Virus record (IMG/VR): IMGVR_UViG_3300033388_005412
Span: 1-64,000 of that record
Strand: one strand, 5' to 3'
Length of the DNA: 64,000 nucleotides
DNA from: a virus
Taxonomy: Duplodnaviria > Caudoviricetes
In this document: positions 7,918 through 50,779 of the stretch, one piece after another
Layout of the letters: each line of letters begins with the position of its first letter
How positions within the stretch are numbered: position 1 is the stretch's first letter
Made by a program: the position numbers and the translations under genes
Notes under the pieces: generated by a model
Told to the model about the DNA's origin: nothing
The model's database searches: none
The model's input: only the letters and a program-made list of their open reading frames with translations

Positions 7918-8310
7918 ATGAAACCAGAAATTAAACTCGAACCGATAAAAGAAATTACAGAAAAATCAAACGGAACTATAATTGATGCACTGCAACATTT
8001 TCTGTATAGGCCAAATTCTTTACAGCTTCGCCAACAAATATCAGAAATGGTATTACAAAAACTTGGATGTTATAACATACCTGTAAATTTTGACGGTGTT
8101 GATTTTTCAGTAGAAGAGATTGATAGTTCAATTACAGTAGTTCCTCATAATTTGTATACAGCAATACTATTATATGGATTTGAAGTAAATTACTATAAAG
8201 CAAAAAACCAAACAAAATATGATACTGGTTTTGGAACTATTAGGTTTGAAAATGGAAAAGCTTATTTTAAACCAGTTTATGATATAAAGGAGGTTAACCA
8301 TGTCATATAG
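7918..8310 (+). CDS. hypothetical protein
   Basis: ORF in operon. Confidence 0.65.
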   Translation: MKPEIKLEPIKEITEKSNGTIIDALQHFLYRPNSLQLRQQISEMVLQKLGCYNIPVNFDGVDFSVEEIDSSITVVPHNLYTAILLYGFEVNYYKAKNQTKYDTGFGTIRFENGKAYFKPVYDIKEVNHVI

Positions 8311-9193
8311 ACACATTCCTAATTTATATAAAGACAGACACATATTACTATTTAAAGAGGTCTTCGCGAGCGAGAAAATACATGGGACGTCCGCAAATGT
8401 ATCATTCAAGTCAGAAAATGTTGGTGGTGAATTAAAATTCTTTTCAGGCGGCGCGAGTCATATGTTATTTATGGAATTTTTCGATAGAGAAAAATTATTG
8501 GAAAATTTCAAAAAATTAGGACAAGATAATGTAACAGTTTATGGTGAAGCATATGGTGGAAAAATGCAGGGAATGAGGAAAACATATGGTGATAAATTAT
8601 GCTTTACCGCTTTTGAAGTGAAAATAGACAGAACATGGCTTTCGGTTGAAAAAGCTCAAAATGTGTGTTCTCAATTAGATATAGAATTCGTGCCATATAA
8701 AAAAATACTATGTAACATGGAGGCCATAGACGCAGAAAGAGCTGAGCCGTCTGTTATATCTGCACGGCGAACAGGTGCAGAGGATAACGAAAGAGAAGGA
8801 ATTGTTCTAAGGCCGCTTGAAGAAATGCGATTGAACAATGGTGATCGGATAATAGTTAAACATAAGAATGAAAGTTTTTCCGAGAGAAAATCCAAAAGAG
8901 ATACAAAAGTAACGAAAGAAGAATTGGAAGTCATTAAAAAAGCGAATGATATAGCCGAAGAATGGGTTACACCTATGAGGCTAAGACATGTAATTGATTC
9001 AATGGAAACTAAAGTTGAATCCATGGAGAATACAAAAGCAGTTATGACTGCGATGATCGCCGATGTGTTACGCGAATCAAAAGATGAGATAGTAGATAGT
9101 AAGCAGACAAGAACGGCGATGTGCCGAATGACCGCAAAATTATTAAAAAAATATTTTCAGGATAATTTGAGAGAAGAAAATGTCATTGTTTAG
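8300..9193 (+). CDS. Rnl2-family ATP-dependent RNA ligase
   Basis: Nucleotidyltransferase motifs: I EKIHGTSA, III VYGEAYG, IIIa FTAFEV, IV EGIVLRP, V IIVKHKNESFSE. Confidence 0.8.
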   Translation: MSYRHIPNLYKDRHILLFKEVFASEKIHGTSANVSFKSENVGGELKFFSGGASHMLFMEFFDREKLLENFKKLGQDNVTVYGEAYGGKMQGMRKTYGDKLCFTAFEVKIDRTWLSVEKAQNVCSQLDIEFVPYKKILCNMEAIDAERAEPSVISARRTGAEDNEREGIVLRPLEEMRLNNGDRIIVKHKNESFSERKSKRDTKVTKEELEVIKKANDIAEEWVTPMRLRHVIDSMETKVESMENTKAVMTAMIADVLRESKDEIVDSKQTRTAMCRMTAKLLKKYFQDNLREENVIV

Positions 9194-9770
9194 TGTGGGA
9201 TGTAATTCAAAACTGGATGATTCCGTTTACATATTTAATTTGCCGGCATTATATACGTGTCTCGGCTCAACAAAATGGTGTAGAAAACGGTGTTATGCAC
9301 AGCATCATCAAAGAATGTTTAATGCTGTGATGAAAAGCCGGGTAAGCCATTGGACAGCATCATTGGAAAAGGATTTTGTTGATAAAATTTCAGAAGAACT
9401 GGAAGCTGGCCGGCCGAAACTTGTTAGAATACATGAAAGCGGAGATTTTTATAGCAAATGTTATTATAATAAGTGGATTAGAATAGCTAAGAAATTTCCT
9501 AAGATAAAATTTCTAGCTTTTACAAAAAATCATCATCTTGATTTTAGTAAAGCGCCGAAAAATTTCGCGATAAGATTTTCAATTGACTACACATCGGATT
9601 TAAAAATTGTAAAAACTATTAAAAAAACTGTGAGAAAGGCATATGTATTAGACAAGCTGGGTAATATAACTTCCGATGGATTTACATGTAAGAAAACTGA
9701 AAAATATTGTGGAGATAAATGTACATTTTGTTGGGACAGTGAGGAAGATGTCGGATTACCGGAGCATTAG
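9180..9770 (+). CDS. GP88-like protein (radical-SAM-related)
   Basis: IFNLPALYTCLGSTKWCRKRCYA ... VRIHESGDFYS...W...FLAFTK. Confidence 0.8.
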   Translation: MSLFSVGCNSKLDDSVYIFNLPALYTCLGSTKWCRKRCYAQHHQRMFNAVMKSRVSHWTASLEKDFVDKISEELEAGRPKLVRIHESGDFYSKCYYNKWIRIAKKFPKIKFLAFTKNHHLDFSKAPKNFAIRFSIDYTSDLKIVKTIKKTVRKAYVLDKLGNITSDGFTCKKTEKYCGDKCTFCWDSEEDVGLPEH

Positions 9771-9778
9771 GAGAATAA

Positions 9779-9955
9779 ATGAAAATAAAAGAAATTGAAA
9801 GCGGTGAAGTATTTGAATGGACAGTAAAGGAAGTTTTGGAAGAGATAAATCGTGATAGAAGTGAAGAATGGCAGAGTTATAATAAAACAGATTGGAGAGA
9901 AGGATGGTATGAATGGTGTGAAGGTGACATATATACTTTGATGGAGGACATATGA
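9779..9955 (+). CDS. small Trp/Glu-rich phage protein (58 aa, not in ORF track)
   Basis: MKIKEIESGEVFEWTVKEVLEEINRDRSEEWQSYNKTDWREGWYEWCE; AGGAG SD; ATGA overlap. Confidence 0.7.
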   Translation: MKIKEIESGEVFEWTVKEVLEEINRDRSEEWQSYNKTDWREGWYEWCEGDIYTLMEDI

Positions 9956-10251
9956 TAGCGCCGACAAGCGATATTGAACATTTTAGAACTGAAGTTATGG
10001 TGAAACAATGTGAACTCCTGGATAACATAAGAAGACAACTCGTTGTATTGAATAAATCAGTGAACGATGGTAAACTCATTAATCCAGGACACATGGCGGC
10101 ACCTGATTTAAAAGTGAGATCGTGGGTTAAAAAATCAATGAAGACAAGTGAAACTGTTGTTGATTTATCAAAAGACGAACCAGGTATGAAGTTTAATAAT
10201 CCAAATCCATTTCCCGGCGATAAAGGCCCGAGATTCGGCAAAAAGAGGTGA
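9952..10251 (+). CDS. hypothetical protein
   Basis: GGAGG SD, ORF. Confidence 0.65.
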   Translation: MIAPTSDIEHFRTEVMVKQCELLDNIRRQLVVLNKSVNDGKLINPGHMAAPDLKVRSWVKKSMKTSETVVDLSKDEPGMKFNNPNPFPGDKGPRFGKKR

Positions 10252-10499
10252 AAATTATGAATAAAATTCAGAATTCGAAATTGTTAAATAGAAAATTAAC
10301 ACATGCTTTATTCAAAGAGCATGGCAAACAAATTGGCGAGGAGGCTATTAAGGCTGTTGAAGAACTCGTTAGAGATAAAATTGCATCTATTTGCAGTTCA
10401 ATGGGCGGCAGTGTTAAACGTATAAATGTCGCTGATGTTATCGCATTAAATAATGTAAAGAAAAGAAAAGTGAGATTGGTAAAGAGAGGATTGTTATAA
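10248..10499 (+). CDS. putative histone-fold protein with basic tail
   Basis: Helix-loop pattern NRKLTHALFKEH-GKQI-GEEAIKAVEELVRDKIASICSSM-GGSVKRI-NVADVIALN resembles archaeal/bacterial histones. Confidence 0.5.
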   Translation: MKIMNKIQNSKLLNRKLTHALFKEHGKQIGEEAIKAVEELVRDKIASICSSMGGSVKRINVADVIALNNVKKRKVRLVKRGLL

Positions 10500-12789
10500 T
10501 GTATACTTACAAGCCAGATAAATGTAAAGTCCCAATTAAAGTATGGTCAGAAAGAGATTCAATCGAACAAAGTGCTTTGGAACAGATTGAAAATGCGGCA
10601 ATGTTGCCATTTGTTTATCATCATGCAGCATTAATGCCAGATGCCCATCTTGGTTATGGGATGCCAATAGGCGGAGTAGTTGCATTGGACGGGATTATAT
10701 CTCCGCACATGGTGGGTTCTGATATTGGGTGTGGGATGTGTGCTGTTAAAACATCACTGACTGAAATTGATGCGGAAACAATTAAAAAAATCTTTGGCGG
10801 ATCTAAAGAAAACAAGGGTGGAATACGAGCATGTGTGCCAGTTGGATTTAATCATCAAAATAAAAAACAAGATGTTTCAAATATGCCTATAGATAGATAT
10901 AGACCGGATCGTGGAAATTATCCAACACAAGATATTACACCAATTGTTGCTCGTGAATTTGAGAGTGCTTTAAAACAACTCGGTACTCTTGGGGGTGGTA
11001 AATGGTTGCTTCCAGCCCAAGAGGATAATCTAAATATACTGAAATTTTCTCTGATTGACTTGGAAATCCTGCTGTAGGATGACAGGGCGCAAACTGTAAA
11101 AAGTAGCGTGAGAGACTAAGTGAGAAAACTCTATAAAACGAGAAGCGATAGTCCGAACTTGAGTATAAATAGCTATAAAAGCTCAAGATATAGACGGAAA
11201 CGTTCTATACTATTTTATTTTCTTAATTTGTTGATTTTTTTCAACAAAATGATATAGTATACTTATGGAGGTATATTATATGCTAAATAAATTAAGTTCG
11301 TTTCAGTCTTATTTGATTGGTTTGATGCAAGGTGATGGACATATGTATACTACTACTCGAAATAGAGGAAGTCTTCGATATGAGATTTCAATTCGCGATA
11401 AAGATATAGTGTATAAACTTGAAAAATTATTAGTTAAGTTTCATACACATGTTTCATATCGTACTCGTGATACAAATTTTAAAAAAGATTATCATTCTAT
11501 TTCGTTTGTTATTCATAATTTAGCTTTTAGAAAATGGCTAAATACATATGTTCCTTATGGAAGAAAATCAGATGTTGTAAAACCACCTAAAAATGTTATT
11601 ACGAAAGATTATATCAGAGGATTAACAGATGCTGATGGGTCAATTGGATTAACGAAAGGAGGTCGTTGTTTTTGGTCATTGTGTACGCAGTCGGAGACTG
11701 TAAAGAGATATGTGATTAATCATATTAATAGTCTATTGAATCTTGATAAAAGAAACAATAAAAACAAAAGAGATAATATATATAACATTGTCTTATATGA
11801 TGAAAACGCTCAGGACTACACAAACTTCTTATATCATAATTCTGAATTGTATTTAGATAGAAAATATCAGAAATACTTAATTGTTCAGAAATGGAAAAGA
11901 AGTGTACCAAAAATAAACTTTAAACGAAAACGGTGGCTGAAATCTGAAGACAATATAATATTGTCAAGTAAATATTCCATAATAGATCTTTGTCAAATGT
12001 TTGGAAGAACACAAAAATCAGTTTATATGAGACTGTGGCGATTAAATAAAATAAGTAACAAAAAAGAATCATTTCATTGAGATACAAAAAGGATCTGATG
12101 GACATATCTGGATTATGATTCATAGTGGAAGTAGAAATTTAGGATATAAAGTCGCTGATTATTATAATAAATTAGCTATTGAATTAAATGAGAAATGGCA
12201 TAGCAAAGTTCCTAAAGAATGGCAACTCGCATTTTTACCTGTGGATTCTAATGAAGGCCAAGCATATTTAAAAGAAATGCAGTATTGTGTTGATTTCGCT
12301 TTTGCAAATAGAAAGCTAATGATGAATAGAACTAAATATTGTTTCGATGAAATAATATCCGGTATTGAATTTGATCATATAATAAACATAGCACATAATT
12401 ATGCGTCATTAGAGAACCATTTCGGCAAAAATGTGTGGGTACATAGGAAAGGGGCTACATTAGCAAGAAAAGGCACTATAGGCATCATTCCGGGCTCCCA
12501 GGGGACGCATAGCTATATAGTAGAAGGTTTAGGTAATCCAGAATCATTTATGTCATGTTCACACGGTGCTGGGAGATGTATGAGTAGAACACAGGCCAAG
12601 AAAGAACTTAACTTAGAAATCGAAAAAAAGAAAATGGATGATCAAGGTATTATTCATGGTATGAGAAACAAAAATGATTTGGATGAATCATTATCAGCAT
12701 ATAAGGATATTAAAACTGTTATGAAAAATCAGGAAGATTTGGTAAAAGTTCTTGTTGAACTAAAGCCACTGGGTGTAATTAAGGGTTGA
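10499..12789 (+). CDS. rtcB: RtcB RNA 2',3'-cyclic/3'-phosphate ligase; exons 10499-10999 and 12067-12789 (407 aa spliced)
   Basis: MPDAHLGYGMPIGG, VGSDIGCGM, GTLGGG|NHFIEIQ, IHSGSRNLG, AHNYA, VHRKGAT, IPGSQG, SCSHGAGR, DESLSAYKDI. Confidence 0.95.
11000..12066 (+). mobile_element. group I intron in rtcB (1067 nt)
   Basis: 5' exon ends in U, intron ends in G; P1 GGGGGUGGU/GUUGCUUCC; P10 AAAUGGUU/AAUCAUUU; P3 TTTTCTC/GAGAAAA; P7 GACTA 11114-18/TAGTC 11149-53; removal restores GGGNH in frame. Confidence 0.92.
11231..11258 (+). promoter_or_regulatory. intron-internal promoter candidate for the homing endonuclease
   Basis: TTGATT-16-TATAGT with extended -10 (TGaTATAGT); overlapped by hairpin TTGTTGA-T6-TCAACAA. 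Confidence 0.5.
11280..12080 (+). CDS. double-motif LAGLIDADG homing endonuclease (intron-encoded)
   Basis: YLIGLMQGDG and YIRGLTDADG; GGAGG SD before ATG 11280; C-terminal Myb/HTH-like W..SED...FGRT..SV..R. Confidence 0.92.
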   Translation: MLNKLSSFQSYLIGLMQGDGHMYTTTRNRGSLRYEISIRDKDIVYKLEKLLVKFHTHVSYRTRDTNFKKDYHSISFVIHNLAFRKWLNTYVPYGRKSDVVKPPKNVITKDYIRGLTDADGSIGLTKGGRCFWSLCTQSETVKRYVINHINSLLNLDKRNNKNKRDNIYNIVLYDENAQDYTNFLYHNSELYLDRKYQKYLIVQKWKRSVPKINFKRKRWLKSEDNIILSSKYSIIDLCQMFGRTQKSVYMRLWRLNKISNKKESFH

Positions 12790-12814
12790 CAGATGTTAGA
12801 GGTTAATATATAAT
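12786..12814 (+). promoter_or_regulatory. sigma70 promoter
   Basis: TTGACA-17-TATAAT, perfect consensus. Confidence 0.9.
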
Positions 12815-12843
12815 TTATATGTTATGGAAAGGAGATTTTAAAG

Positions 12844-13131
12844 ATGAAGAAATCAAAAATTAAATTATCAGAAGAACAAAAAAAAGCAATGCAAAAGTAT
12901 TGGATGAAAGCATGTGAGGCCGAAGAAGAATATGACAAAGCAGTGTGTTATCTGGAACAGGAGATGAATAAAGAATTTAAAAACTCAAATTTACCGGAAT
13001 TGGAATTTTTTCGCAGTGACGGCGAAACTGCCGGAATCGGTGCCATGAATATTCATGATAGAGATAATTTTCCTCTGATACTATATAATTGGAATAACTA
13101 TCGCCGCTTATATTTTGAAGAAGATAAATAA
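12844..13131 (+). CDS. hypothetical protein
   Basis: AAGGAG SD, ORF behind promoter. Confidence 0.7.
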   Translation: MKKSKIKLSEEQKKAMQKYWMKACEAEEEYDKAVCYLEQEMNKEFKNSNLPELEFFRSDGETAGIGAMNIHDRDNFPLILYNWNNYRRLYFEEDK

Positions 13132-13147
13132 AACGGAGGAACAATAA

Positions 13148-13465
13148 ATGAAAAATAAAGAATTTCTACATGAAACTTTAAATCTGAGTCAACGAAAGTA
13201 TATAGATGCTTTTAAGTGGCTCGTTGGCGACGAAAGATTAACTGGTCGAAGTTATTTACTGGCGATTTGTTTTATTGAAAAAGCATTAAATAATCTTGGT
13301 AAATCAGTTGAAGTATGGGATCATTACCAACCAAACGGCCTAAAAGGGAATATGATGTCACTTATCAAGGAAATATTATCAAAATATCCTGAAATTGAAA
13401 ATTATTGTACACTTGCCCGTGACTGGTTTAGAATTAGTAAAGGTGTTAAGAAGGTTAATAAATGA
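13148..13465 (+). CDS. hypothetical protein
   Basis: GGAGG SD, ORF. Confidence 0.7.
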   Translation: MKNKEFLHETLNLSQRKYIDAFKWLVGDERLTGRSYLLAICFIEKALNNLGKSVEVWDHYQPNGLKGNMMSLIKEILSKYPEIENYCTLARDWFRISKGVKKVNK

Positions 13466-13484
13466 AATGTTCGCATAAGGAGGG

Positions 13485-14096: not shown

Positions 14097-14314
14097 AATT
14101 AGGTAAACGATCTGGTTGTTATTTTAATGATATAATTGATATTAATTTATCCCCGAGTCAACTTGAGGATTTAGTTAATATGACAGAGGAAAAAGCAATG
14201 AATGAAACAAATTATGATATTGTCGGTTTGTACAGAACTTTGAAAGATTTATTGCAGGCGCGATATTATGACTGGATAGAAGCACGAGAGAAAATAAAAA
14301 AGAAGGAGAATTGA
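14093..14314 (+). CDS. hypothetical protein
   Basis: ORF, ATGA overlap. Confidence 0.65.
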   Translation: MKLGKRSGCYFNDIIDINLSPSQLEDLVNMTEEKAMNETNYDIVGLYRTLKDLLQARYYDWIEAREKIKKKEN

Positions 14315-14315: not shown

Positions 14316-16124
14316 ATGAAACTAGAAAATTTGGCTTTAATAAACTTCCGTAACCATACAAATACGGTATTAGAGTTGTCCAAAAAGATTAACGTATTTA
14401 TCGGTCCGAACGCATCCGGCAAAAGTAGTATTTGCGATGCATTGGTATATCTATTTACGGGAAAGAACGGAAGGGATGAGAAATCATCAACAGGACTCAC
14501 TGAGTTGATAACATTCGGCGAAAGCAGAGCTATGGTTTCATCAGATATTAATGGTATTGGAAAAATAACACGGTGTATACCTCATTCACTTCAAGTTAGT
14601 GGTTGGAGCGGCGGTTTACGGGATCAGCAGAATAAATTATATGACGCAATCAAATCGAATGAAGATGCTGTCATATGCTGTCTGAATAGTAATGAGTTTA
14701 TAAATATGGATGCGTCGGATAAAAAGAACTTTATATTTAATTTGATGGGAATGCACTTGGATTCTGATAAAGTTAAAATGGAATTTTTAAGATGGGCTAA
14801 AGAAAATAATATCCAGAACCCCATGAATATATTGAATTTGATGCCGAGTGATATTATATTTGACGGTTCTCATGAGAAACTGGACGAAGCGTATAAACAT
14901 TTTTTCACATCAAGAAAATTTCTTAAGAAAGAAATAAAAGAACTGGAAGTTAAGGCACAGGACAACAAGTCTCAGTTACCGGAAAATGTAACAGTTGATA
15001 ATAAAGATGCCATACTTAAGAAAATGAAAGAGCTGAAGGATGGCCGGGATGAACTTATGTTACAACTCGGCAAAATCCAGAGTATGGTTAAGCAGCATTT
15101 GGAACTCACTAAAGTTATTGATGCGAAAGTTGATACAGTTCCCGGAACATTAAAAGATTTTGAAAAAAGTGTAAGCAAGGCTGAGAAAACAATTACCGAG
15201 TTGAAAGAGCGACACGCTAAAGAATCGGCTGAAATTAAAGTTATCAGCGATTTAACAGCAAAACTGGAAAACTTTAATGGAAAATGTCCTTTACTCGATG
15301 ATTTTGATTGTGCGGCCGGAAATGAATTGATTAAAGTTCGTGATGAAAATAAATTGAAAATCAAAGAGAAGACAAAAATGATTAATGATATTACAAGTGC
15401 TCTCCAAAAATTGGGCAATGAAAAAGAGGTACTTGAAAAAAATATCGTTATAAAACAGAATGAACTTAAGCATGATGATGATGTCAAAAAGGCCAAGGAA
15501 GAACTTAAATCGATAACTAAACTTGGCGATCCTAAAAAGATACAGGATGACATAAATGCTGTCAGTGAAAGATTAACAAAAGGACAGTCTATTTTGACAA
15601 TGATCGACGCTGAGATTTTAAATGGAAAACAACAGAAAGCAGCAAGCATTGCTATGGATAAGAAGAAAAATGACTTGAAAAAAACTGAGATTCTGGTGGA
15701 CGCATTCGGTCCTAAGGGTATTAAGACAATACTCCTCAACCGGGCTCTAAAACCCTTGCAGGAAAAAGTATCTGAAAAAATGCAATTGCTGACCGATGGA
15801 AAATATTCGATTGATTTTAGAATCAAAGAGAAAAATTTCGATATATATGTGACATCGGATGGAATTGAGAGAAGTATTAAACATCTTAGCACGAGTGAAA
15901 GATTGAGAACGGGTATTATAATGCAGGATGCCATTAATTCCATGGCTGGTTTTAAAATGATAGTTATTGATCAAGTCGATATGCTTGATGACGACAATAA
16001 GAAACTATTGTGGAAACTTATTGATAGAATTAAAGATAATTATGAGACAATTATCATATTATCAACCGGATTATCAGTAAAAGATACAAACAAACCTGAT
16101 GTAAACATGTTCTATATTGGTTAA
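14316..16124 (+). CDS. SbcC/Rad50-like SMC ATPase
   Basis: LALINFRNH, Walker A GPNASGKSS, long coiled coil with CPLL..DC hook, signature LSTSERLR, Walker B VIDQVD. Confidence 0.9.
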   Translation: MKLENLALINFRNHTNTVLELSKKINVFIGPNASGKSSICDALVYLFTGKNGRDEKSSTGLTELITFGESRAMVSSDINGIGKITRCIPHSLQVSGWSGGLRDQQNKLYDAIKSNEDAVICCLNSNEFINMDASDKKNFIFNLMGMHLDSDKVKMEFLRWAKENNIQNPMNILNLMPSDIIFDGSHEKLDEAYKHFFTSRKFLKKEIKELEVKAQDNKSQLPENVTVDNKDAILKKMKELKDGRDELMLQLGKIQSMVKQHLELTKVIDAKVDTVPGTLKDFEKSVSKAEKTITELKERHAKESAEIKVISDLTAKLENFNGKCPLLDDFDCAAGNELIKVRDENKLKIKEKTKMINDITSALQKLGNEKEVLEKNIVIKQNELKHDDDVKKAKEELKSITKLGDPKKIQDDINAVSERLTKGQSILTMIDAEILNGKQQKAASIAMDKKKNDLKKTEILVDAFGPKGIKTILLNRALKPLQEKVSEKMQLLTDGKYSIDFRIKEKNFDIYVTSDGIERSIKHLSTSERLRTGIIMQDAINSMAGFKMIVIDQVDMLDDDNKKLLWKLIDRIKDNYETIIILSTGLSVKDTNKPDVNMFYIG

Positions 16125-40665: not shown

Positions 40666-40881
40666 TTATTTTCCCCCCGATTTCTTTTTTGAACTCTTTT
40701 TAAGTTCTTTTGCTTTTTTCATTCTGTTTATTATATCATTGACTTGCCTGCCTGTCAACACCCTATTTTCTTTTTCAACTGTTTTTGTTTCTTCTTTTTT
40801 TATGTTGACCTGTTTAATTTGATCTTGTTGCTTTATTTTCGCCAATTTAGGATTGTAATTTATTGTGTTCGGAAATATCAT
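40666..40881 (-). CDS. hypothetical basic protein
   Basis: ORF. Confidence 0.6.
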   Translation of the reverse strand: MIFPNTINYNPKLAKIKQQDQIKQVNIKKEETKTVEKENRVLTGRQVNDIINRMKKAKELKKSSKKKSGGK

Positions 40882-41348
40882 TTCATTTCAACCCCATGTG
40901 TGTCTAAATAAAATGTTAAGATCGCGAGAGATGACCATATATCTTTAGCAATACCGTACAACGGGCCTGGAGTTTTCTTAAGACCTATTGCTTTTTTTCT
41001 GCCGCCCCACCTATCCAGAAGCGCTTGACGTATATTTGAATCTTTAGCTCTCATTGAAAAACAATGATGCATTTTAACATCTTTTCTAAGTATTAATTCC
41101 GTTTTAAATCCTTTATCTATTGCAACTTGTTGGAATCTACCAATCCATTCAATTGTATCTATTGTTGTTGCGCCGATCGGCATTCCATATGACGCGATTT
41201 TTTCTATTAAAACCACTAAATTTGATGTGTGCGATTTTAATATATCAATGATTTTCTGGTTCTCGACGATTTCTTTACTTATTATCTTATCACACCATAA
41301 AATATATGCGCTCTGGGTTGTGCCGGGATCAATACTAATATATGTCAT
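40878..41348 (-). CDS. RuvC-like (RNase H fold) resolvase
   Basis: YISIDPGTTQSA...VLIEKIASYGM...DIWSSLAI. Confidence 0.75.
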   Translation of the reverse strand: MTYISIDPGTTQSAYILWCDKIISKEIVENQKIIDILKSHTSNLVVLIEKIASYGMPIGATTIDTIEWIGRFQQVAIDKGFKTELILRKDVKMHHCFSMRAKDSNIRQALLDRWGGRKKAIGLKKTPGPLYGIAKDIWSSLAILTFYLDTHGVEMK

Positions 41349-41575
41349 TTTTTAATATTTTCCCTGACAATCGAAAATATAGTCTGAAGATGTTTTCTTA
41401 CACATTCATGTGATATCGCAAGTTTGTTTGATATTTCTTTAAGTGTTAAATTTCTATTTATTCTCAAATAAAATATCAAAACATCTAAAGAATTTAATTC
41501 AGATATAGTATCTTCTAACGCAAGACTTAACATATAATTGTCAATTCTTTTTTCTTTTGTTTTTCTTTTTTCCAT
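41345..41575 (-). CDS. sigma70 region-4-like HTH protein
   Basis: LTLKEISNKLAISHECVRKHL. Confidence 0.7.
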   Translation of the reverse strand: MEKRKTKEKRIDNYMLSLALEDTISELNSLDVLIFYLRINRNLTLKEISNKLAISHECVRKHLQTIFSIVRENIKK

Positions 41576-42545
41576 TCGAATTCCCTAATTCTTTATCCCA
41601 ATCTGTTAGTTGTCCGTTTTTATCGAATACTGTTATTTTACCATTTTGAATTTTAGCAAACTGTTTACGCCAAACACTGTGAGCAGAATCACGTATCATG
41701 ACATATTCATGATGTTCGCGGTCTGTCATACAACCCATCGACACTGCAAGATATTTAGCATTCACAGTAAATTCCATTCCAAAATTATGTCCATGTAACT
41801 GAAGAATATTCTGATCAAATTTATGTGCAAGTTTTAATGCTTTTGTTGTTGATCTGGCCGTAGCACGATCCGGATGTGTAATCCTCCACACCTGATTTCC
41901 CGACTTTAAAATACCATAATAATAATCACTTGAGCGAACATTGCCGACTTTTATTATCCTATTGCAAAGGGCGCCTAATGATTTCCAATTCATAACATAG
42001 TCTAATCGCCTTAAAATGCGGGCATCATGATCGCCGCAAATGAGCACAATCTGTTTAAATGTTTTAGTTAGTACCTTAATGACATCAAACAAAACTGAAA
42101 ATTCATCATCGAGTTTTCTTGATACACGTTCTGTGTTCAAATTAGGATATATTGACGTTGTTTTTTGGTCTGTCAAATCACCGCCGACAATTAATGTTGT
42201 TATTTTGTCACGTTTTGCTATTTTAATCATTTTATTCATCATATCAATATCATGAAAAGGAATGTGCGTGTCACCTATAACCATAGCATCACCGGATATT
42301 ACTTCAAATTTATTATACTTTTCAAGAACACAGCCCCCATCATATGTTAACAATGCGGCATCTTTTGATGAATCTAATCTAGTGCTATATCTACCCATCA
42401 TATTTGGATATTTTTGGTTTATTTTCTGAACGGCATCCGTGGTTGTACCAAAATAATCGGCAATTCGTTGCAATGTTAATCTTTGTTGTCTTAGTTCTTT
42501 TAATTTTTTAAGTTTACTTTCTGTCCATTTTATACGCATTTTCAT
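41541..42545 (-). CDS. HTH plus calcineurin-like metallophosphoesterase
   Basis: LTLQRIADYFGTT; VIGDTHIP, VGGDLTD, CGDHD, ITHP, LHGHN. Confidence 0.85.
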   Translation of the reverse strand: MKMRIKWTESKLKKLKELRQQRLTLQRIADYFGTTTDAVQKINQKYPNMMGRYSTRLDSSKDAALLTYDGGCVLEKYNKFEVISGDAMVIGDTHIPFHDIDMMNKMIKIAKRDKITTLIVGGDLTDQKTTSIYPNLNTERVSRKLDDEFSVLFDVIKVLTKTFKQIVLICGDHDARILRRLDYVMNWKSLGALCNRIIKVGNVRSSDYYYGILKSGNQVWRITHPDRATARSTTKALKLAHKFDQNILQLHGHNFGMEFTVNAKYLAVSMGCMTDREHHEYVMIRDSAHSVWRKQFAKIQNGKITVFDKNGQLTDWDKELGNSNGKKKNKRKKN

Positions 42546-43227
42546 TCTCCTTTTGCTTTTGTTTCCAGCCCTGTTTCCATAATTTTATTTTTCTTGTGTT
42601 AATCATATCTCTGACTTCATTATCACAAGAATCAACATCTATTTTATAAATTTGTGATGACCCGCGATTATTAAAATAATCTTTTATCCATAATATACCT
42701 CCAACTTCAACCGGCATTCTCGTACGCAATCCTAATAAATGTTTATAAAAACCTAATTGTATTGAATATTTGTGATGTTTCTCATCACCTATTTTACGAC
42801 TTGTTTTTATATCCCATATTCTTAAACAATCAGATGTTTGCTCAACAATATCCATTGTCCCGGCTATAAGATTAATCTCATCCCACGCCATTACTTCTGA
42901 TGTTAATTCCCCATTAAATTCAAATTTAGAAAATTTTTTAACAATTGATTTTAAATCGGAATTATCCGGCAATATATCATGTCTAATATATTCTTCAATT
43001 GCGGTATGTGCTTCCGTGCCGGTTTTTGTTATGTTGCCCCATAATGTCAAAACCTCTTTTTTTGTTTTTTTGTAATATACACTCCAAGGCATATTTATAA
43101 TTTTGTCTATAACACCGTCCACATCAAAAGCACCAAGACATTCTTCTATTAATTTATTAACTGATATATATTCCTGATTTAATTTATCAAAATATTGATG
43201 TGTCTCAGGGTAAAATTTAATACTCAT
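42514..43227 (-). CDS. PD-(D/E)XK exonuclease
   Basis: GTEAHTAIE...SEV...IAGTMDIV..IWDIKTS..SIQLGFY. Confidence 0.8.
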   Translation of the reverse strand: MSIKFYPETHQYFDKLNQEYISVNKLIEECLGAFDVDGVIDKIINMPWSVYYKKTKKEVLTLWGNITKTGTEAHTAIEEYIRHDILPDNSDLKSIVKKFSKFEFNGELTSEVMAWDEINLIAGTMDIVEQTSDCLRIWDIKTSRKIGDEKHHKYSIQLGFYKHLLGLRTRMPVEVGGILWIKDYFNNRGSSQIYKIDVDSCDNEVRDMINTRKIKLWKQGWKQKQKENENAYKMDRK

Positions 43228-47041: not shown

Positions 47042-47907
47042 ATACAATGGTAAATATATCAGAAATAATAAATAAAAATATATCATTTACACAAGAGAAA
47101 TTATTGAAAAGAAATCCTATTGTATTCTGGCCGACCGATGCCGGCTGTTATGTTAATGAAACATATCACGGTGAGTGTATGAAAAAAATATATTGGAAAA
47201 TAATGGGAATACCTTACACGAATCCTGTAAATCCTAGAGTTAAAAGAGTTATGGATGTTGGGTCTTTAATAGAACACAACGAAATTAAATATTCTAAAGG
47301 ATCCAGACGCATATATGTTGATAACAACATTTGTTTTTCATATGAAATATCACCAAATATAATAATATCAGGTGAAATGGATGCTATATATGTAATTGAT
47401 GATATCTATTATGGAATTGAATATAAAACAGGTTCCGGATGGTATTTCAGAAATGATATTTTTGGATCAAAAACAACATTAGGATTTCCCAGGGCCAAAG
47501 ATTTACTTCAAGTGATGATTTATCTTGATTATTGTAAACAAAAATCTGATATGCCGATTAGTAATTTTAAATTGATTTATATCGACAGAGGACGATGCGA
47601 CACATGTGAGTTTGATATAAAATTATCAGATGAGAAAAAAGCTATTATTAATAATGAACTGTTATCCGAATTCAGTGTTTATGATATATGTAATACATAT
47701 GAGAATTTGCAAAAATATATTAACACAAATACATTGCCGCCTTGCTGTTATCATAATTTTTATGATAAGCCGACTATAAAACAAATGTATATAAAAAAAA
47801 TAATAACAAAAAATCAATATATAAAATGGATGAAAACAGGCGGAGGTATGGATTATCAATGTTCATATTGCATGTATTTAAATAGATGTTTGCAGGGGGT
47901 AAAATAA
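47035..47907 (+). CDS. Cas4/AddB-like PD-(D/E)XK nuclease
   Basis: GECMKKIYW; ISGEMDAI..IEYKT; YQCSYCMYLNRC. Confidence 0.8.
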   Translation: MVNTMVNISEIINKNISFTQEKLLKRNPIVFWPTDAGCYVNETYHGECMKKIYWKIMGIPYTNPVNPRVKRVMDVGSLIEHNEIKYSKGSRRIYVDNNICFSYEISPNIIISGEMDAIYVIDDIYYGIEYKTGSGWYFRNDIFGSKTTLGFPRAKDLLQVMIYLDYCKQKSDMPISNFKLIYIDRGRCDTCEFDIKLSDEKKAIINNELLSEFSVYDICNTYENLQKYINTNTLPPCCYHNFYDKPTIKQMYIKKIITKNQYIKWMKTGGGMDYQCSYCMYLNRCLQGVK

Positions 47908-48560
47908 TGAAAAATATTGAAACTGATAAAACGATCAAAACTATTATAGGTGTTGATTCTTGCGGAGATGGCGCATTAAGCGGTCCGGTTGTCGCCGGCG
48001 CGGCCGCCTTTAAATTCGATATCGACTCAACTAAAAAATATTTAATGGATATTGGTTTAAATGACAGCAAAAAACTCTCCCCGAAAAAACGATATTTCAT
48101 AGAAAAAGAAATTAAAAAATTTATAATCTATGGTAAAGTAAGCATTGGGTTATATGATAACACGGCTTCTTTAATCGATCAAATAGGTATTAAAAATGCG
48201 TCTTTAAATGCTATGTACATGGCCGCAATTAGAGTCGCGCATAATATCGAAAAACCAATGCAGCTGAATACCCGCCTGCAGTGTGTTTTAATGGTTGACG
48301 GCATTCGGGAGATACCCAATATGGATATGGAACAGGTTACTATTATAAAAGGTGACTCAAAAATCCCCGAAATTATGATTGCGAGCATAATTGCAAAATG
48401 CAGCCGTGATCGATTTATGATATTGATGAGTGAAAAATATCCAAAGTATGGATGGGCCAAAAATAAAGGATATGGTACAACAAAGCATATCGCGGCAATT
48501 AGGGAATACGACTTATCAGAATTACATAGGAGCACATTTTGTCAAAACTTCAGAAAATAA
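47907..48560 (+). CDS. rnhB: ribonuclease HII family protein (variant motif I)
   Basis: GVDSCGDGALSGPVVA, NDSKKL, MVDG, IIKGDSK...ASIIAK..RD, YGWAKNKGYGT..H, HRSTF. Confidence 0.88.
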   Translation: MKNIETDKTIKTIIGVDSCGDGALSGPVVAGAAAFKFDIDSTKKYLMDIGLNDSKKLSPKKRYFIEKEIKKFIIYGKVSIGLYDNTASLIDQIGIKNASLNAMYMAAIRVAHNIEKPMQLNTRLQCVLMVDGIREIPNMDMEQVTIIKGDSKIPEIMIASIIAKCSRDRFMILMSEKYPKYGWAKNKGYGTTKHIAAIREYDLSELHRSTFCQNFRK

Positions 48561-49009
48561 ATAAAACATCGACAGATGTCGTTGTATCAAGATATAAAAT
48601 AACGCTCGAATCGAAAATGACATCAATGACATTAGATGGATATTTAATACCGCCTGTTAATTTTAATCTCGAAAATCGATTAGTATCGGGCATGATTGAA
48701 ATAGACCCGCGCTATCAAAATAAAATCGGATTATTGAGCATGGAAAATTCATATTACGGTGGAAGATCTGATAAAACTTTTGTTCCGATAGATGATTATG
48801 ATCATGTTTATACAACGGTATCAAAATCATTAAATAATTCAATAACAATTTACACGTGGCACGAAAATTTCACATTTTATAATGTATATTTAAATAGATA
48901 TAAATCGGATGAAAAAATATTTAAATTTATGGCACAGGCGGCCCTTGATAATTTATTAAAGTTTGAACAGCAGTTCACAATTGTCCCGCCGAAACAACTT
49001 GACAAATGA
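48539..49009 (+). CDS. hypothetical protein
   Basis: ORF; start uncertain. Confidence 0.55.
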   Translation: MSKLQKINKTSTDVVVSRYKITLESKMTSMTLDGYLIPPVNFNLENRLVSGMIEIDPRYQNKIGLLSMENSYYGGRSDKTFVPIDDYDHVYTTVSKSLNNSITIYTWHENFTFYNVYLNRYKSDEKIFKFMAQAALDNLLKFEQQFTIVPPKQLDK

Positions 49010-49039
49010 TTCTTGACAGATGACTCTTGACAGATGATT
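48998..49039 (+). repeat. three tandem 14-bp repeats each containing TTGACA
   Basis: CTTGACAAATGATT / CTTGACAGATGACT / CTTGACAGATGATT. Confidence 0.95.
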
Positions 49040-49055
49040 TTTGGTTTTGTACTAT
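49027..49055 (+). promoter_or_regulatory. sigma70 promoter
   Basis: TTGACA-17-TACTAT then AAGGAGG SD. Confidence 0.8.
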
Positions 49056-49073
49056 GTATGAAGGAGGAATAAA

Positions 49074-49376
49074 ATGATTGACATTAAGAAAGCGTTGGAT
49101 ACAACTAATTTTGAAGAAAAAATATTCAAACAAGCTAAAAAACAAAATGAATTTGATGAATTATTAATGAAGAGTGAAATTTTCACGGAAATGCGCCGAG
49201 TAGTTAAAAAATTATTTGAACTTGCTTTTATGGATGATCGCTCAGCAATTAAAAAGAAACTAAAAGCCAACTATAAAAAAAATGGAATTACTTTGGGTTT
49301 GCTTGATGACATCGAACATTGGAAAGATGAAAAATGGGAGACCAGGGAAAAACAAATAAAACAGGCAACAAAATGA
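49074..49376 (+). CDS. hypothetical protein
   Basis: AAGGAGG SD, ORF. Confidence 0.7.
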   Translation: MIDIKKALDTTNFEEKIFKQAKKQNEFDELLMKSEIFTEMRRVVKKLFELAFMDDRSAIKKKLKANYKKNGITLGLLDDIEHWKDEKWETREKQIKQATK

Positions 49377-50779
49377 ATGAAATAGTAATACCGAATGAAG
49401 CAAAAAAAATCTTTGATATTTTCAAAGATGCCGGTTATAAAATCTGGCTTGTTGGTGGGTGTTGCCGTGATCTTTTAATCGACGCAAACACTGAATTAAA
49501 AGATTTGGATTTCGCTAGTCCGACAAGGGCTGATATAACAACCAAAATATTAAAAGATAATGGATACAAACCATATACCATAGGATCGTATTTCGGTACA
49601 ATAGGGACAACTGTTAATAATATTGATATACAGGTAACAACATTTCGTAAAAAAGAACATTATAACAGAGGTTCCAGACATCCCGAGGTTGAATTCGGCG
49701 AATCCATAGACCAGGACATAGCCCGGCGGGATTTTCGCATGAATTCAATAGCGGCCGATGAAAATGGTAATATATATGATCCATATGATGGATATAAAGA
49801 TATCATAAATAAAGAAATATCAGTTGCCGGTGATATAAAAGAAATAATGTCAGAAGATCCGCTTAGATTATTAAGATGTGGGCGCTTTATAAGCAAATTC
49901 GGATTCAGCCCATCATTGGACTTACTTGATACTGTCGCTGAATTATCATATCTCATAACAACAATCAGCGTTGAAAGATGGAGACAGGAAATGGACAAGC
50001 TTCTACTTGGAAAAAATCCCGGAGACGCCCTTGATTTTATGATATATACAAAACTCTGCAATTATATGCTTCCTGAATTAATAAATATTGTCGATTTCGA
50101 TCAGTCAAGTCAATACCATCATAAAAATGTATTTGAACATACAAAACAAGTCATTGAACAAACTCCTCTCATACTGGAAATCAGATGGGCCGCCCTTATG
50201 CATGATTTGGGTAAAGCATATACACGAACATACGAAGATGGAAATGTTCATTTCTACAAGCATGAGATAATATCCGGAATACTGGCCAATGGAATCATGA
50301 ATAGATTCAAATTCCCAAATAAACTAAGAAAACGAATTAAAAATATCATAGAAAACCATATGTGCATTGTACAATATTCACCGGCATGGTGTGATTCGGC
50401 AGTACGGCGTTTCGCGAATAAGCATTCCAGTGCCGAATCAAGCATACTGGACAGTCTTTTTGAGCTTTCTATGGCTGATATAACATCTTCACACCCTGAC
50501 AGGGTTGAGGCCGGCATAGCTAACGTTAGACACCTCAAACAAAGAATTATTGACATGGCTAAGGCTAAAGAACTCGGCATTCATCTTCCAACCGGTTTAG
50601 GCAGGGCTATGATGGACACTCTTATGATTAAACAGGGGCCAATTATTGGAATAATTATGAAAAATATAATAGAACACATAGAAAGCGGTGAATTATTAGC
50701 AAATCAATCAATTGATTATTATATAGAGTGGATTAGAAAGAAGGAGGAATTATGGAAGCAGGAATGGAAACAGAAATGA
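49373..50779 (+). CDS. class II tRNA nucleotidyltransferase (CCA-adding-like) with HD domain
   Basis: LVGGCCRDLL, DLDFA, RRDFRMNSIA, EDPLRLLR, SVERWRQE, HH..VFEHT, MHDLGK; no [LV][LV]G[RK][RK]F poly(A) polymerase signature seen. Confidence 0.88.
   Translation: MNEIVIPNEAKKIFDIFKDAGYKIWLVGGCCRDLLIDANTELKDLDFASPTRADITTKILKDNGYKPYTIGSYFGTIGTTVNNIDIQVTTFRKKEHYNRGSRHPEVEFGESIDQDIARRDFRMNSIAADENGNIYDPYDGYKDIINKEISVAGDIKEIMSEDPLRLLRCGRFISKFGFSPSLDLLDTVAELSYLITTISVERWRQEMDKLLLGKNPGDALDFMIYTKLCNYMLPELINIVDFDQSSQYHHKNVFEHTKQVIEQTPLILEIRWAALMHDLGKAYTRTYEDGNVHFYKHEIISGILANGIMNRFKFPNKLRKRIKNIIENHMCIVQYSPAWCDSAVRRFANKHSSAESSILDSLFELSMADITSSHPDRVEAGIANVRHLKQRIIDMAKAKELGIHLPTGLGRAMMDTLMIKQGPIIGIIMKNIIEHIESGELLANQSIDYYIEWIRKKEELWKQEWKQK

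What the first reader, a model, noticed from the sequence alone, without database searches (positions are those of the whole stretch)
8300..50779. Multi-route RNA end-repair toolkit: Rnl2 ligase, RtcB and HD-containing CCA enzyme, plus a metallophosphoesterase
Established: RtcB joins 2',3'-cyclic or 3'-phosphate ends to 5'-OH; Rnl2 needs 3'-OH and 5'-P; class II CCA enzymes rebuild tRNA 3' ends and their HD domains have phosphatase activity. Seen: all three are present (8300, 10499, 49373), along with a calcineurin-like phosphoesterase (41541) and the tRNA mimic. Inference: a layered counter-defence against tRNA-cleaving host toxins, covering both direct ligation and heal-and-seal. No polynucleotide kinase is visible in this window.
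Basis: partly seen in the sequence, partly recalled or inferred. Interest (0 to 1): 0.7.

Follow-up and report, generated by a model that had tools for sequence, protein, structure and literature searches.

The report
Scattered RNA-repair genes in a phage
This 203-kb uncultured phage really does encode several enzymes that rejoin broken RNA and rebuild tRNA ends, but such sets are already known in large phages; here the genes are scattered, the phosphoesterase looks DNA-related, and no kinase for the "heal-and-seal" route was found anywhere in the genome.

Summary
Window 8300-9193 encodes an Rnl2-family RNA ligase with its catalytic motifs present. An RtcB ligase starts at 10499. A class II CCA-adding enzyme with an intact HD domain lies at 49334/49373-50779. 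A metallophosphoesterase lies at 41541-42545 on the minus strand.

Three corrections apply.
1. The 10499 ORF is only exon 1. rtcB is split at GGG|NHF by a 1067-nt group I intron (11000-12066) carrying a LAGLIDADG endonuclease, so active RtcB requires splicing.
2. The phosphoesterase carries an N-terminal helix-turn-helix domain and sits among DNA recombination genes. None of 13 related loci has an RNA-repair neighbour.
3. No Pnkp-type kinase was found in the complete 203-kb genome, so a phage-only heal-and-seal route is not supported.

Outside the window the genome also has Rnl1, an RlaP nucleotidyltransferase coupled to another phosphoesterase, and four tRNAs.

Among 20 large RtcB-carrying phage contigs the other genes occur patchily, which argues for independently acquired accessories, not a system. 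Combinations of RtcB, Rnl1, Rnl2, CCA enzyme and RlaP in jumbo phages are already described (PMC7824862).

The counter-defence reading is plausible but untested. Maturation of the phage's own CCA-less tRNAs and tRNA-like RNAs is a live rival. Verdict: new member of a known kind. The scan had already noted the intron and the 133-141 kb genes on this same genome.

The parts
8300..9193 (+). Rnl2-family ATP-dependent RNA ligase, 297 aa. Motif residues K26/H28 (motif I), E83 (III), E166 (IV), K187/K189 (V), plus an Rnl2-type C-terminal domain.
   Evidence: An AGGAGG ribosome-binding site lies 7 nt upstream of the ATG.
10499..10999 (+). rtcB exon 1, 167 aa, ending ...LGTLGGG. Contains D75 and C78 of the metal site.
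11000..12066 (+). Group I intron, 1067 nt. The ribozyme core is about 11000-11215, with the endonuclease ORF in the 3' part. U10999 pairs with G11008 in P1, there is an 8-bp P10, and G12066 is the terminal (omega) G.
   Evidence: More than 65 of 80 relatives have the uninterrupted gene with the two exons abutting exactly.
11280..12080 (+). LAGLIDADG homing endonuclease ORF inside the intron. The mechanical ORF starts at 11265; GGAGG at 11267-11271 favours ATG 11280. Its last 14 nt overlap exon 2.
   Evidence: Homologs with 37-38% identity sit in the split rtcB of Bacillus phages.
12067..12789 (+). rtcB exon 2, 240 aa, starting NHFIE. Contains N168, H169, H186, H277 and H333 (the GMP-accepting His) in spliced numbering. 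The spliced protein is 407 aa.
49334..50779 (+). Class II CCA-adding tRNA nucleotidyltransferase with a C-terminal HD/HDIG domain. An alternative start at 49373 is ATGA-coupled to the upstream ORF. Motifs: D57/D59, RRD 131-133, EDxxR 174-178, HD 290-291.
41541..42545 (-). HTH-fused metallophosphoesterase. Real, but judged not to be part of the RNA set. Motifs DxH 92-94, GD 122-123, GDHD 171-174, H224, HGH 251-253.
It is on the same strand, 2.3 kb upstream of the Rnl2 gene, and has no encoded 3' CCA.
   Evidence: Earlier finding e1-5369130. Only the 3' end was checked here; ARAGORN does not call it.
9180..9770 (+). GP88-family (PF17338) Cys-rich protein of unknown function. It overlaps the Rnl2 stop by 14 nt. 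This pairing is not conserved elsewhere, so it is listed as context only.
12786..12814 (+). Perfect sigma-70 consensus (TTGACA-17-TATAAT) directly after the rtcB stop. It marks rtcB as the last gene of the tightly packed 7579-12789 gene string.
   Evidence: This is a pattern match only.

Best explanation
The phage carries a scattered, independently acquired complement of RNA-end enzymes of the kind already catalogued in jumbo phages. It is not a dedicated multi-gene system.

Components in the window:
- An Rnl2-type ligase and an intron-interrupted rtcB lie in one tightly packed same-strand gene string (7579-12789) and are probably co-transcribed.
- A CCA-adding enzyme with an HD domain lies 37 kb away, in the replication block.

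Components elsewhere in the genome:
- Rnl1.
- An RlaP nucleotidyltransferase translationally coupled to a small phosphoesterase, next to the tRNA cluster.

Likely working (all steps below are inferred from family biochemistry; none is shown for this phage):
- After the intron splices itself out and restores the GGG-NHF active-site motif, RtcB directly joins 2',3'-cyclic-phosphate or 3'-phosphate ends to 5'-OH ends. This is the only route in this phage that can handle cuts by metal-independent tRNA nucleases, because no 5' kinase was found.
- Rnl2 and Rnl1 can seal only 3'-OH/5'-phosphate breaks, unless a host or unrecognised kinase helps.
- The CCA enzyme rebuilds or adds 3' CCA on host and phage tRNAs. 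Its HD domain may remove 2',3'-cyclic or 3' phosphates.

The net effect is to keep the tRNA pool usable during infection, combining repair after host attack with ordinary maturation of phage tRNAs. The metallophosphoesterase at 41541 most likely belongs to DNA recombination or end processing, not to this set.
For: Enzyme identities and catalytic residues:
- Rnl2.
- RtcB: both halves score above the Pfam cut-off, and profile positions 154/154 meet at the junction. D75, C78, N168, H169, H186, H277 and H333 align to Pyrococcus RtcB D95, C98, N202, H203, H234, H329 and H404.
- CCA enzyme: 304 bits to TIGR02692 against 99 bits to PcnB; 1MIV 2.5e-30.

Intron:
- In more than 65 of 80 relatives, exon 1 residue 167 abuts exon 2 residue 1 with no gap.
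- P1 has the U.G wobble at the splice site and P10 is 8 bp.
- The core is 75-80% identical to ORF-less insertions that split other phage genes. 15 of 36 predicted pairs show compensatory changes.
- Bacillus phages have the same insertion site with classic P/Q/R/S elements.

Gene string: the ORFs overlap or abut, and a perfect promoter consensus follows rtcB.

Link to tRNA: 26 of 80 RtcB loci have tRNA genes within 6 kb and 15 of 80 within 300 nt on the same strand.

Genome inventory:
- Rnl1: phrog_562 3.9e-72, PF09511.
- RlaP: PF10127.
- A phrog_547 phosphoesterase, 1.7e-44, overlapping the RlaP gene.
- Four tRNAs.

No kinase detected.

Mosaic distribution among 20 large RtcB contigs: PF09414 ligase in 8, Rnl2-type in 3, Rnl1 in 2, CCA enzyme in 5. 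RtcB has no conserved protein neighbour.

Phosphoesterase context.

Published precedent for such combinations: PMC7824862.
Against: - No expression or activity data exist, and splicing has not been observed.
- The host is unknown, so no cognate tRNA nuclease can be named.
- Both ATP-dependent ligases occur without any recognisable kinase. PMC7824862 reports that kinases generally accompany such ligases, so a component may be missing from this account, either a novel kinase or reliance on the host.
- A PF09414 ligase lies within 4 kb of RtcB in three other loci, in different arrangements. This hints at some functional linkage beyond chance.
- A relative (L087) has Rnl2 and CCA/HD homologs 7 kb apart.
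- The Rnl2 and CCA scores are below NCBIfam's equivalog cut-offs, so the exact substrate specificity is uncertain.
Confidence: 0.6

Rival explanations
1. Housekeeping maturation, not counter-defence. The CCA enzyme, and possibly the ligases, exist mainly to finish the phage's own tRNAs and its family of tRNA-shaped RNAs, which are transcribed without a 3' CCA.
For: - tRNA-Met and tRNA-Gln lack an encoded CCA, as do the tRNA-like RNAs at 5853-5972, about 157.1 kb and about 167.3 kb. tRNA-Thr and tRNA-Leu do encode it.
- RtcB relatives are often embedded in tRNA gene clusters on the same strand.
- RlaP and a phosphoesterase sit directly beside the tRNA cluster.
Against: - Bacteria whose own tRNA genes lack an encoded CCA must carry a CCA enzyme of their own (general knowledge), so a phage copy is not strictly needed for maturation.
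- Three different ligases are hard to explain by maturation of unbroken transcripts.
- No split or intron-bearing tRNA gene was seen.
Confidence: 0.22
2. One reading: a coordinated, layered system. RtcB does direct ligation. In parallel, the HD domain and the 41541 metallophosphoesterase heal 3' ends for sealing by Rnl2.
For: - All the named genes exist.
- Metallophosphoesterases of the lambda-phosphatase/CthPnkp type can open 2',3'-cyclic phosphates (PMC2190708).
- PMC7824862 notes calcineurin-like and HD-like phosphatases in the RNA repair sets of a few jumbo phages.
- The CCA enzyme's HD region matches phrog_6931, which also matches the T4 Pnkp kinase domain. That suggests, but does not show, HD-kinase fusion proteins in phages.
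Against: - No 5' kinase was found in a complete genome.
- The metallophosphoesterase has an N-terminal HTH, is on the opposite strand in a DNA recombination block, and has no RNA-repair neighbours in 13 related loci.
- Its fold matches are generic: Vps29, LpxH, PolD exonuclease, Mre11.
- A better-placed phosphoesterase exists at 133 kb, coupled to RlaP.
- The genes do not co-occur consistently in relatives.
Confidence: 0.1
3. The Rnl2-like enzyme serves replication, not RNA repair. It would seal nicks that have an RNA 3'-OH strand, such as primer junctions, in a phage that has no DNA ligase of its own.
For: - No ATP- or NAD-dependent DNA ligase family is detectable in the genome.
- The phage encodes its own primase-helicase and RNase HII.
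- T4 Rnl2 is a nick-sealing enzyme for duplexes with a ribo 3'-OH strand (established biochemistry, from my own knowledge).
Against: - The gene lies in the small-ORF block with rtcB, not in the replication module.
- Many phages simply use the host ligase.
- Rnl2 enzymes need ribonucleotides on the 3'-OH side, so they cannot replace a DNA ligase in general.
Confidence: 0.06

Closest known systems
RNA-repair complements of jumbo phages, as surveyed by Iyer et al. 2021 (PMC7824862). Example: Burkholderia phages BcepSaruman and BcepSauron, which carry RtcB, Rnl1 and Rnl2.
   Same: [quoted passage not shown] The genes are scattered accessories interpreted as counter-measures to tRNA-cleaving defences.
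   Different: That survey reports kinases and phosphatases as generally congruent with the ATP-dependent ligases. Here no Pnkp-type kinase, HAD phosphatase of the T4 type or 2H enzyme was found. In addition, rtcB carries an intron.
Phage T4 Pnkp + Rnl1 heal-and-seal pathway against PrrC, and T4 Rnl2
   Same: Rnl1 homolog with 33% identity to T4 RnlA. Rnl2 homolog with 26-28% identity over 97% of its length to T4-like Rnl2, with the same motifs and C-terminal domain.
   Different: The defining healing enzyme Pnkp is absent. T4 has no RtcB or CCA enzyme (from my own knowledge).
Split rtcB of Bacillus Herelleviridae phages vB_BsuM-Goe17, Goe27, Goe20, BSP36 and 278BB001
   Same: The same insertion point (GGG|NHF), a homologous LAGLIDADG ORF (37-38% identity), the same layout (exon 1, about 290-nt core, ORF overlapping exon 2), and 5' exon ending in U with the insertion ending in G.
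   Different: Their core carries the textbook P/Q/R/S sequence elements and is longer in the P2 region. The window's core is closer to ORF-less introns in a coat gene and a ribonucleotide reductase gene. In GenBank the Bacillus genes are annotated as separate proteins, not as an intron.
Bacterial class II CCA-adding enzymes with an HD domain (E. coli Cca; actinobacterial type TIGR02692; Bacillus enzyme 1MIV)
   Same: Head, neck and RNA-binding regions, motifs A, B and D, and the HD motif are all present. There is a full-length match to the actinobacterial-type model.
   Different: The score is below the equivalog cut-off (304 against 439 bits). The enzyme is phage-encoded and sits in a replication block after RNase HII.
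Cellular RtcB systems (E. coli RtcBA; RtcB2-PrfH, which protects against colicin E3, PMC9223846)
   Same: The same catalytic residues, and similar length to the short bacterial RtcB forms (407 aa spliced).
   Different: No RtcA, RtcR, PrfH or Archease partner was seen beside it in the window or in 80 relatives.

Membership tests
Rnl2-family RNA ligase | Covalent nucleotidyltransferase motifs I (KxHGT), III, IIIa, IV and V | tested here: met
   EKIHGT 25-30 (K26, H28), VYGEAYG 80-86, FTAFEV 102-107, EGIVLR 166-171, IIVKHKN 184-190. Motifs IV and V align to T4 Rnl2.
Rnl2-family RNA ligase | Rnl2-specific C-terminal domain | tested here: met
   Query 161-291 aligns to T4 Rnl2 200-327 at 2.8e-7. 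TIGR02307 covers profile 22-308 of 326. tblastn covers 97% of T4-like Rnl2.
Rnl2-family RNA ligase | Score above NCBIfam's equivalog cut-off | tested here: inconclusive
   58.7 bits against a cut-off of 197. This is a distant member: family-level assignment holds, equivalog naming does not.
RtcB 3'-phosphate/5'-OH RNA ligase | Metal-binding Asp/Cys/His residues, the GGGNHF motif and the GMP-accepting His | tested here: met
   D75, C78, N168, H169, H186, H277 and H333 are present in the spliced sequence. N168 and H169 exist in frame only after the intron is removed.
RtcB 3'-phosphate/5'-OH RNA ligase | Continuous coding sequence or demonstrated splicing | not testable with these tools
   The three ORFs are in three different frames, so splicing must be at the RNA level. 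No sequencing run was listed in which to look for the joint.
Group I intron | 5' exon ends in U paired to G in P1; intron ends in G; P10 pairs with the 3' exon | tested here: met
   U10999 pairs with G11008 in the minimum-energy fold. G12066 is the last intron base. 11000-11007 pairs with 12067-12074 over 8 bp, including one G.U (read directly from the sequence).
Group I intron | Conserved core helices supported by covariation | tested here: met
   P3, P4, P5, P6 and P8 are predicted on three related cores, and 15 of 36 pairs have compensatory changes. P7 (GACUA/UAGUC with a bulged A) is invariant. The sample is only three sequences.
Group I intron | Match to Rfam group I models | tested here: not met
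   No hit at the gathering threshold or at E<=10. This is a property of the Rfam models, not a defining feature of the class, so membership rests on the rows above.
Class II CCA-adding enzyme | Motif A (GGxxRD...DxD), motif B (RRD) and motif D (EDxxR) | tested here: met
   GGCCRD 41-46, DLD 57-59, RRDFRMN 131-137, EDPLR 174-178. Aligned to 1MIV over 22-248.
Class II CCA-adding enzyme | Distinct from poly(A) polymerase | tested here: inconclusive
   CCA models score far higher than PcnB: 304 and 189 bits against 99 bits. The loop between motifs A and B has the same length as in 1MIV. Only an activity assay would settle CCA- versus A- or CC-adding.
HD phosphohydrolase domain | H...HD...D metal-binding signature | tested here: met
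   H262/H263, H290-D291 and D382. PF01966 1.2e-6 and TIGR00277 HDIG above its cut-off. Activity on RNA ends is not testable here.
T4-type heal-and-seal pathway (Pnkp + ATP-dependent ligase) | A polynucleotide 5'-kinase/3'-phosphatase | tested here: not met
   Five searches were negative: tblastn with T4 PseT, phrog_505 and phrog_415 at E<=1, PF13671, and a Walker-A scan of all ORFs of 60 aa or more. CheckV rates the genome 100% complete, with terminal repeats.
RNA-end-healing metallophosphoesterase (CthPnkp / lambda-phosphatase type) | Metallophosphoesterase motifs and fold | tested here: met
   DxH 92-94, GD 122-123, GDHD 171-174 (the family consensus is GNHE), H224, HGH 251-253. The model has pLDDT 90 and the fold is confirmed.
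RNA-end-healing metallophosphoesterase (CthPnkp / lambda-phosphatase type) | Specific kinship or genomic linkage to RNA ligases or kinases | tested here: not met
   No sequence match to CthPnkp or lambda phosphatase in the PDB. The top fold matches are Vps29, LpxH, PolD exonuclease and Mre11. Neighbours are a PD-(D/E)XK exonuclease and a resolvase. None of 13 related loci has RNA-repair genes.

The most novel reading that the evidence does not exclude
A kinase-less RNA repair arrangement. The phage keeps two ATP-dependent ligases (Rnl1, Rnl2), RlaP and a CCA/HD enzyme but no recognisable 5' kinase. Either an unrecognised RNA 5'-kinase hides among its unassigned ORFs, or these enzymes are not repair enzymes at all and instead process the phage's own large family of tRNA-shaped RNAs, for example by joining, circularising or CCA-tailing them. 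In the first case, candidate places to look are the genes translationally coupled to the ligases: GP88 and the 130-aa ORF beside Rnl2, and the AAA ATPase beside Rnl1.
Probability: 0.12. Interest if true: 0.65.

Novelty: new member of a known kind. Interest (0 to 1): 0.3.

Why it matters
As posed, the finding adds one more uncultured jumbo phage to a pattern already catalogued: RtcB, Rnl1, Rnl2, CCA enzyme and RlaP in varying combinations. Three points give it some value. First, it is a clean case of ATP-dependent RNA ligases with no detectable phage kinase in a complete genome, which sharpens the question of what breaks these ligases actually seal. Second, RtcB in this phage clade is repeatedly invaded at its catalytic motifs: a group I intron at GGG|NHF, also present but unannotated in cultured Bacillus phages, and inteins before Cys78. 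That makes Bacillus phages a tractable model for testing whether rtcB splicing occurs. Third, the frequent physical adjacency of this RtcB clade to tRNA genes gives comparative support for a tRNA-directed role.

Tried and rejected
- Rfam found no group I model hit in the window or in 10900-12300, even at E<=10. The intron assignment rests on other evidence.
- Megablast of 8300-12800 against cultured phages found no match.
- Public sequencing runs: none was listed, and no RNA holder was listed. Splicing and expression could therefore not be examined, and read laying was not used.
- GP88 as a conserved partner of Rnl2 was rejected. The two closest Rnl2 homolog loci (L087, L088) have no GP88 nearby. 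GP88 relatives are mostly in small actinophages. The Atlas gave only 'GP88 family'.
- The small ORFs coupled to rtcB (9952-10251, 10248-10499) have no family hits and no homologs beside RtcB in 80 relatives. They were not pursued.
- Kinase hunt: tblastn with T4 Pnkp, PF13671, phrog_505/415 and Walker-A scans were all negative. The only N-terminal P-loop ORF (183959-185221) is ParA/Mrp-like.
- 2H phosphoesterase (PF13563) and DNA ligases (PF01068, PF01653) gave no hits.
- The first structure model of the metallophosphoesterase, from 5 sequences, was too poor to use (pLDDT 56). The second, from 100 sequences, was good, but the PDB fold search was generic. The profile search against the PDB found nothing significant.
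- The search for related loci with the 100-sequence alignment failed because no stretch was conserved enough. The 5-sequence alignment was used instead.
- Literature searches found no paper describing a phage rtcB group I intron or an experimental test of phage RtcB in counter-defence in the held library.

Full report
**Setting.** The window is the first 64 kb of a 203,294-bp viral record with direct terminal repeats. CheckV rates it 100% complete, and its GC content is 34.8%. It has no close relative among cultured phages at the DNA level.

**Rnl2-like ligase, 8300-9193 (+), 297 aa.**
- Family hits: PF09414 1.2e-14; phrog_548 'RNA ligase' 1.5e-30 over its full length; TIGR02307 'Rnl2 family' 6.7e-16 covering profile 22-308 of 326, which is below the equivalog cut-off.
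- It matches the T4 Rnl2 structure 2HVQ at 2.8e-7. The alignment runs from motif IV through the Rnl2-specific C-terminal domain.
- tblastn aligns 97% of its length to T4-like Rnl2 genes at 26-28% identity.
- Motifs I, III, IIIa, IV and V are present: K26, H28, E83, E166, K187, K189.
- It is therefore an Rnl2-family RNA ligase, with no sign of being a DNA ligase or of inactivation.

**RtcB.**
- The ORF at 10499 matches only Pfam RtcB profile positions 1-155. Positions 184-426 lie in 12115-12789, and a LAGLIDADG ORF sits between them. The three ORFs are in three different frames.
- Reading stop to stop, exon 1 ends ...LGTLGGG at 10999, and the frame of 12055-12789 resumes NHFIEIQ... at 12067.
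- A six-frame HMM search puts the two matches at profile 1-154 and 154-426.
- In more than 65 of 80 related RtcB genes from IMG/VR, residue 167 of exon 1 is followed directly by residue 1 of exon 2.
- The spliced protein is 407 aa. It has D75, C78, N168, H169, H186, H277 and H333, which align to Pyrococcus RtcB D95, C98, N202, H203, H234, H329 and H404.

**The insertion in rtcB (11000-12066) is a group I intron.**
- The 5' exon ends in U10999, paired to G11008 in a P1 hairpin.
- The last intron base is G12066.
- 11000-11007 can pair with the first eight exon-2 bases to form P10.
- The core is 75-80% identical to ORF-less insertions that split a P22-like coat gene (MW202674) and a ribonucleotide reductase gene (Roseobacter phage CRP-118). 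On these three sequences, 15 of 36 predicted pairs show compensatory changes.
- The LAGLIDADG protein has 37-38% identical homologs in Bacillus Herelleviridae phages. There they sit in an rtcB split at the same GGG|NHF point, with textbook P/Q/R/S elements.
For the present finding it means RtcB activity depends on splicing.

**CCA enzyme, 49334 or 49373 to 50779 (+).**
- Domain hits: PolyA_pol head, RNA-binding and HD domains; phrog_2244 tRNA nucleotidyltransferase 1.4e-60.
- TIGR02692 (actinobacterial-type CCA enzyme) scores 1.4e-90 over its full length, against 2.5e-28 for PcnB. The Bacillus CCA enzyme 1MIV scores 2.5e-30.
- Motifs A, B and D and the HD signature are present.
- The HD region also matches phrog_6931, a family that the kinase half of T4 Pnkp matches too. 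That suggests phage proteins fusing this kind of HD domain to a polynucleotide kinase. It is a lead, not proof, that such HD domains act on RNA 3' ends.
- The gene follows a primase-helicase, a Cas4-like nuclease and RNase HII, so it lies in the replication block.

**Metallophosphoesterase, 41541-42545 (-).**
- The protein is real: phrog_221 1.1e-15; a family of more than 1,100 representatives with the canonical DxH, GD, GNHE, H and GHxH motifs; a model with pLDDT 90.
- Nothing ties it to RNA. It has an N-terminal HTH-type domain and belongs to virus-only clusters that carry various DNA-binding N-termini.
- Its neighbours are a PD-(D/E)XK exonuclease (42514-43227) and a Holliday-junction resolvase (40878-41348).
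- One relative has a VRR-NUC nuclease in the same relative position.
- None of 13 related loci has an RNA ligase, RtcB, CCA enzyme or RlaP within 5 kb, and two have an SbcC-like ATPase nearby.
- Fold matches are generic: Vps29, LpxH, PolD exonuclease, Mre11.
- PMC7824862 notes that an SbcC ATPase with a calcineurin-like SbcD partner is nearly universal in jumbo phages. An SbcC-like gene is at 14316-16124.

**Rest of the genome.**
- ARAGORN finds four tRNAs, at 134.7-135.4 kb and 169.4 kb.
- An Rnl1 ligase is at 139963-141018 (-): phrog_562 3.9e-72, PF09511, 33% identity to T4 RnlA. It is coupled to an AAA ATPase.
- An RlaP nucleotidyltransferase is at 133576-134586 (-) beside tRNA-Thr. It overlaps a phrog_547 phosphoesterase at 133010-133579, 1.7e-44. 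This is a better-placed healing candidate than the 41541 gene.
- A compact metallophosphoesterase is at 72305-73000.
- No Pnkp-type kinase/phosphatase, 2H phosphoesterase or DNA ligase was detected.

**Is it a system?**
- Rnl2, GP88, two small ORFs and rtcB form a tightly packed same-strand string. A perfect sigma-70 consensus follows directly after rtcB. Co-expression of the two ligases is a reasonable inference.
- Across relatives the picture is mosaic. RtcB has no conserved protein neighbour. A PF09414 ligase lies within 4 kb in only 3 of 80 loci.
- Among 20 large RtcB-carrying contigs, 8 have a PF09414 ligase, 3 an Rnl2-type ligase, 2 Rnl1 and 5 a CCA enzyme. None has the full set seen here.
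- The one strong association is with tRNA genes: 26 of 80 loci have one within 6 kb and 15 of 80 within 300 nt on the same strand, mostly tRNA-Pro or tRNA-His. These counts include related contigs and are not independent.

**Mechanism.** From established family biochemistry, RtcB is the only enzyme here that can directly rejoin the 2',3'-cyclic-phosphate/5'-OH ends left by metal-independent anticodon nucleases. Without a kinase, Rnl1 and Rnl2 can seal only 3'-OH/5'-phosphate breaks. The CCA enzyme restores or adds 3' CCA. Two of the four phage tRNAs and the three tRNA-like RNAs checked lack an encoded CCA. A maturation role is therefore as economical an explanation as counter-defence for that gene.

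**Comparison with the literature.** Iyer et al. [quoted passage not shown] They interpret these as defence against tRNA-targeting immunity. This phage is a new member of that known kind. Its less ordinary features are the absence of any recognisable kinase and the intron in rtcB.

Noticed in passing
L089:1709-4034 (Bacillus phage vB_BsuM-Goe17, OM728300) and L090:1709-4034 (BSP36, MH707436): Cultured Bacillus Herelleviridae phages have rtcB split at the same GGG|NHF site by a group I intron with textbook P/Q/R/S elements and a homologous LAGLIDADG ORF. GenBank annotates the pieces as separate proteins ('tRNA processing protein 1/2', 'homing endonuclease'), not as an intron.
   Followed up: partly
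L010, L020, L034, L059 (about 4840-5780 in each locus): In these RtcB relatives an in-frame insertion of about 310 aa sits between GVDIG and CGM, immediately before the metal-binding Cys78. It ends in HN or GN, so it is an intein. There are at least two types, starting with Cys or with Ala. L038 has an out-of-frame insertion at the same place. L021 has a different endonuclease insertion near residue 122. rtcB in this clade is a hot spot for selfish elements.
   Followed up: partly
L091:1495-1711 (MW202674) and L092:1477-1876 (Roseobacter phage CRP-118, OR420741): A P22-like coat gene and a ribonucleotide reductase gene are each annotated as two CDSs. They are separated by an ORF-less stretch whose core is 75-80% identical to the window's rtcB intron, so these are probably unannotated group I introns.
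   Followed up: partly
80 RtcB loci L006-L085: A tRNA gene, most often tRNA-Pro or tRNA-His, lies within 300 nt of rtcB on the same strand in 15 loci. Several loci place rtcB at the edge of clusters of up to 25 tRNAs (L031, L033).
   Followed up: partly
G000 133010-134586 (-), outside the window: RlaP (PF10127) overlaps by 4 nt a 189-aa phrog_547 phosphoesterase that has no Pfam hit. The pair abuts tRNA-Thr, and an HNH endonuclease sits between tRNA-Thr and tRNA-Met.
   Followed up: partly
G000 139963-142145 (-), outside the window: The Rnl1 gene overlaps by 4 nt an upstream 376-aa AAA-family ATPase (PF00004) whose 200-aa N-terminal region is unassigned. This looks like translational coupling of unknown meaning.
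   Followed up: no
whole genome G000: No ATP- or NAD-dependent DNA ligase family was detected in this complete 203-kb genome, although it has its own primase-helicase and RNase HII.
   Followed up: partly
window 9180-9770: A GP88-family (PF17338, named after mycobacteriophage D29 gp88) Cys-rich protein with Cx6Cx3C near the N-terminus and a Cx7Cx3CxxC cluster near the C-terminus. It overlaps the Rnl2 stop codon. Its function is unknown and the pairing is not conserved.
   Followed up: partly
window 11265-12080 (residues 211-267) and 41541-42545 (residues 4-58): The C-terminus of the intron endonuclease and the N-terminus of the metallophosphoesterase both match the same segment of phrog_323 ('transcriptional regulator, D5-like'). 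This appears to be a shared small DNA-binding module.
   Followed up: no
L063:4638-5450 (-): A 39% identical homolog of the intron's LAGLIDADG protein lies free-standing, on the opposite strand, about 100 nt upstream of an uninterrupted rtcB.
   Followed up: no
L087:202-8873: In a 36.8-kb relative, a 48% identical Rnl2 and a 38% identical CCA/HD enzyme lie 7 kb apart on the same strand. Between them are a DUF5662 protein and a cytosine-C5 DNA methylase that carries an intein.
   Followed up: partly
L027:534-608: ARAGORN calls a tRNA-Pro inside the coding region of an RtcB relative whose exon-2-equivalent part is about 20 aa longer than usual. This may be a false call or a small insertion.
   Followed up: no
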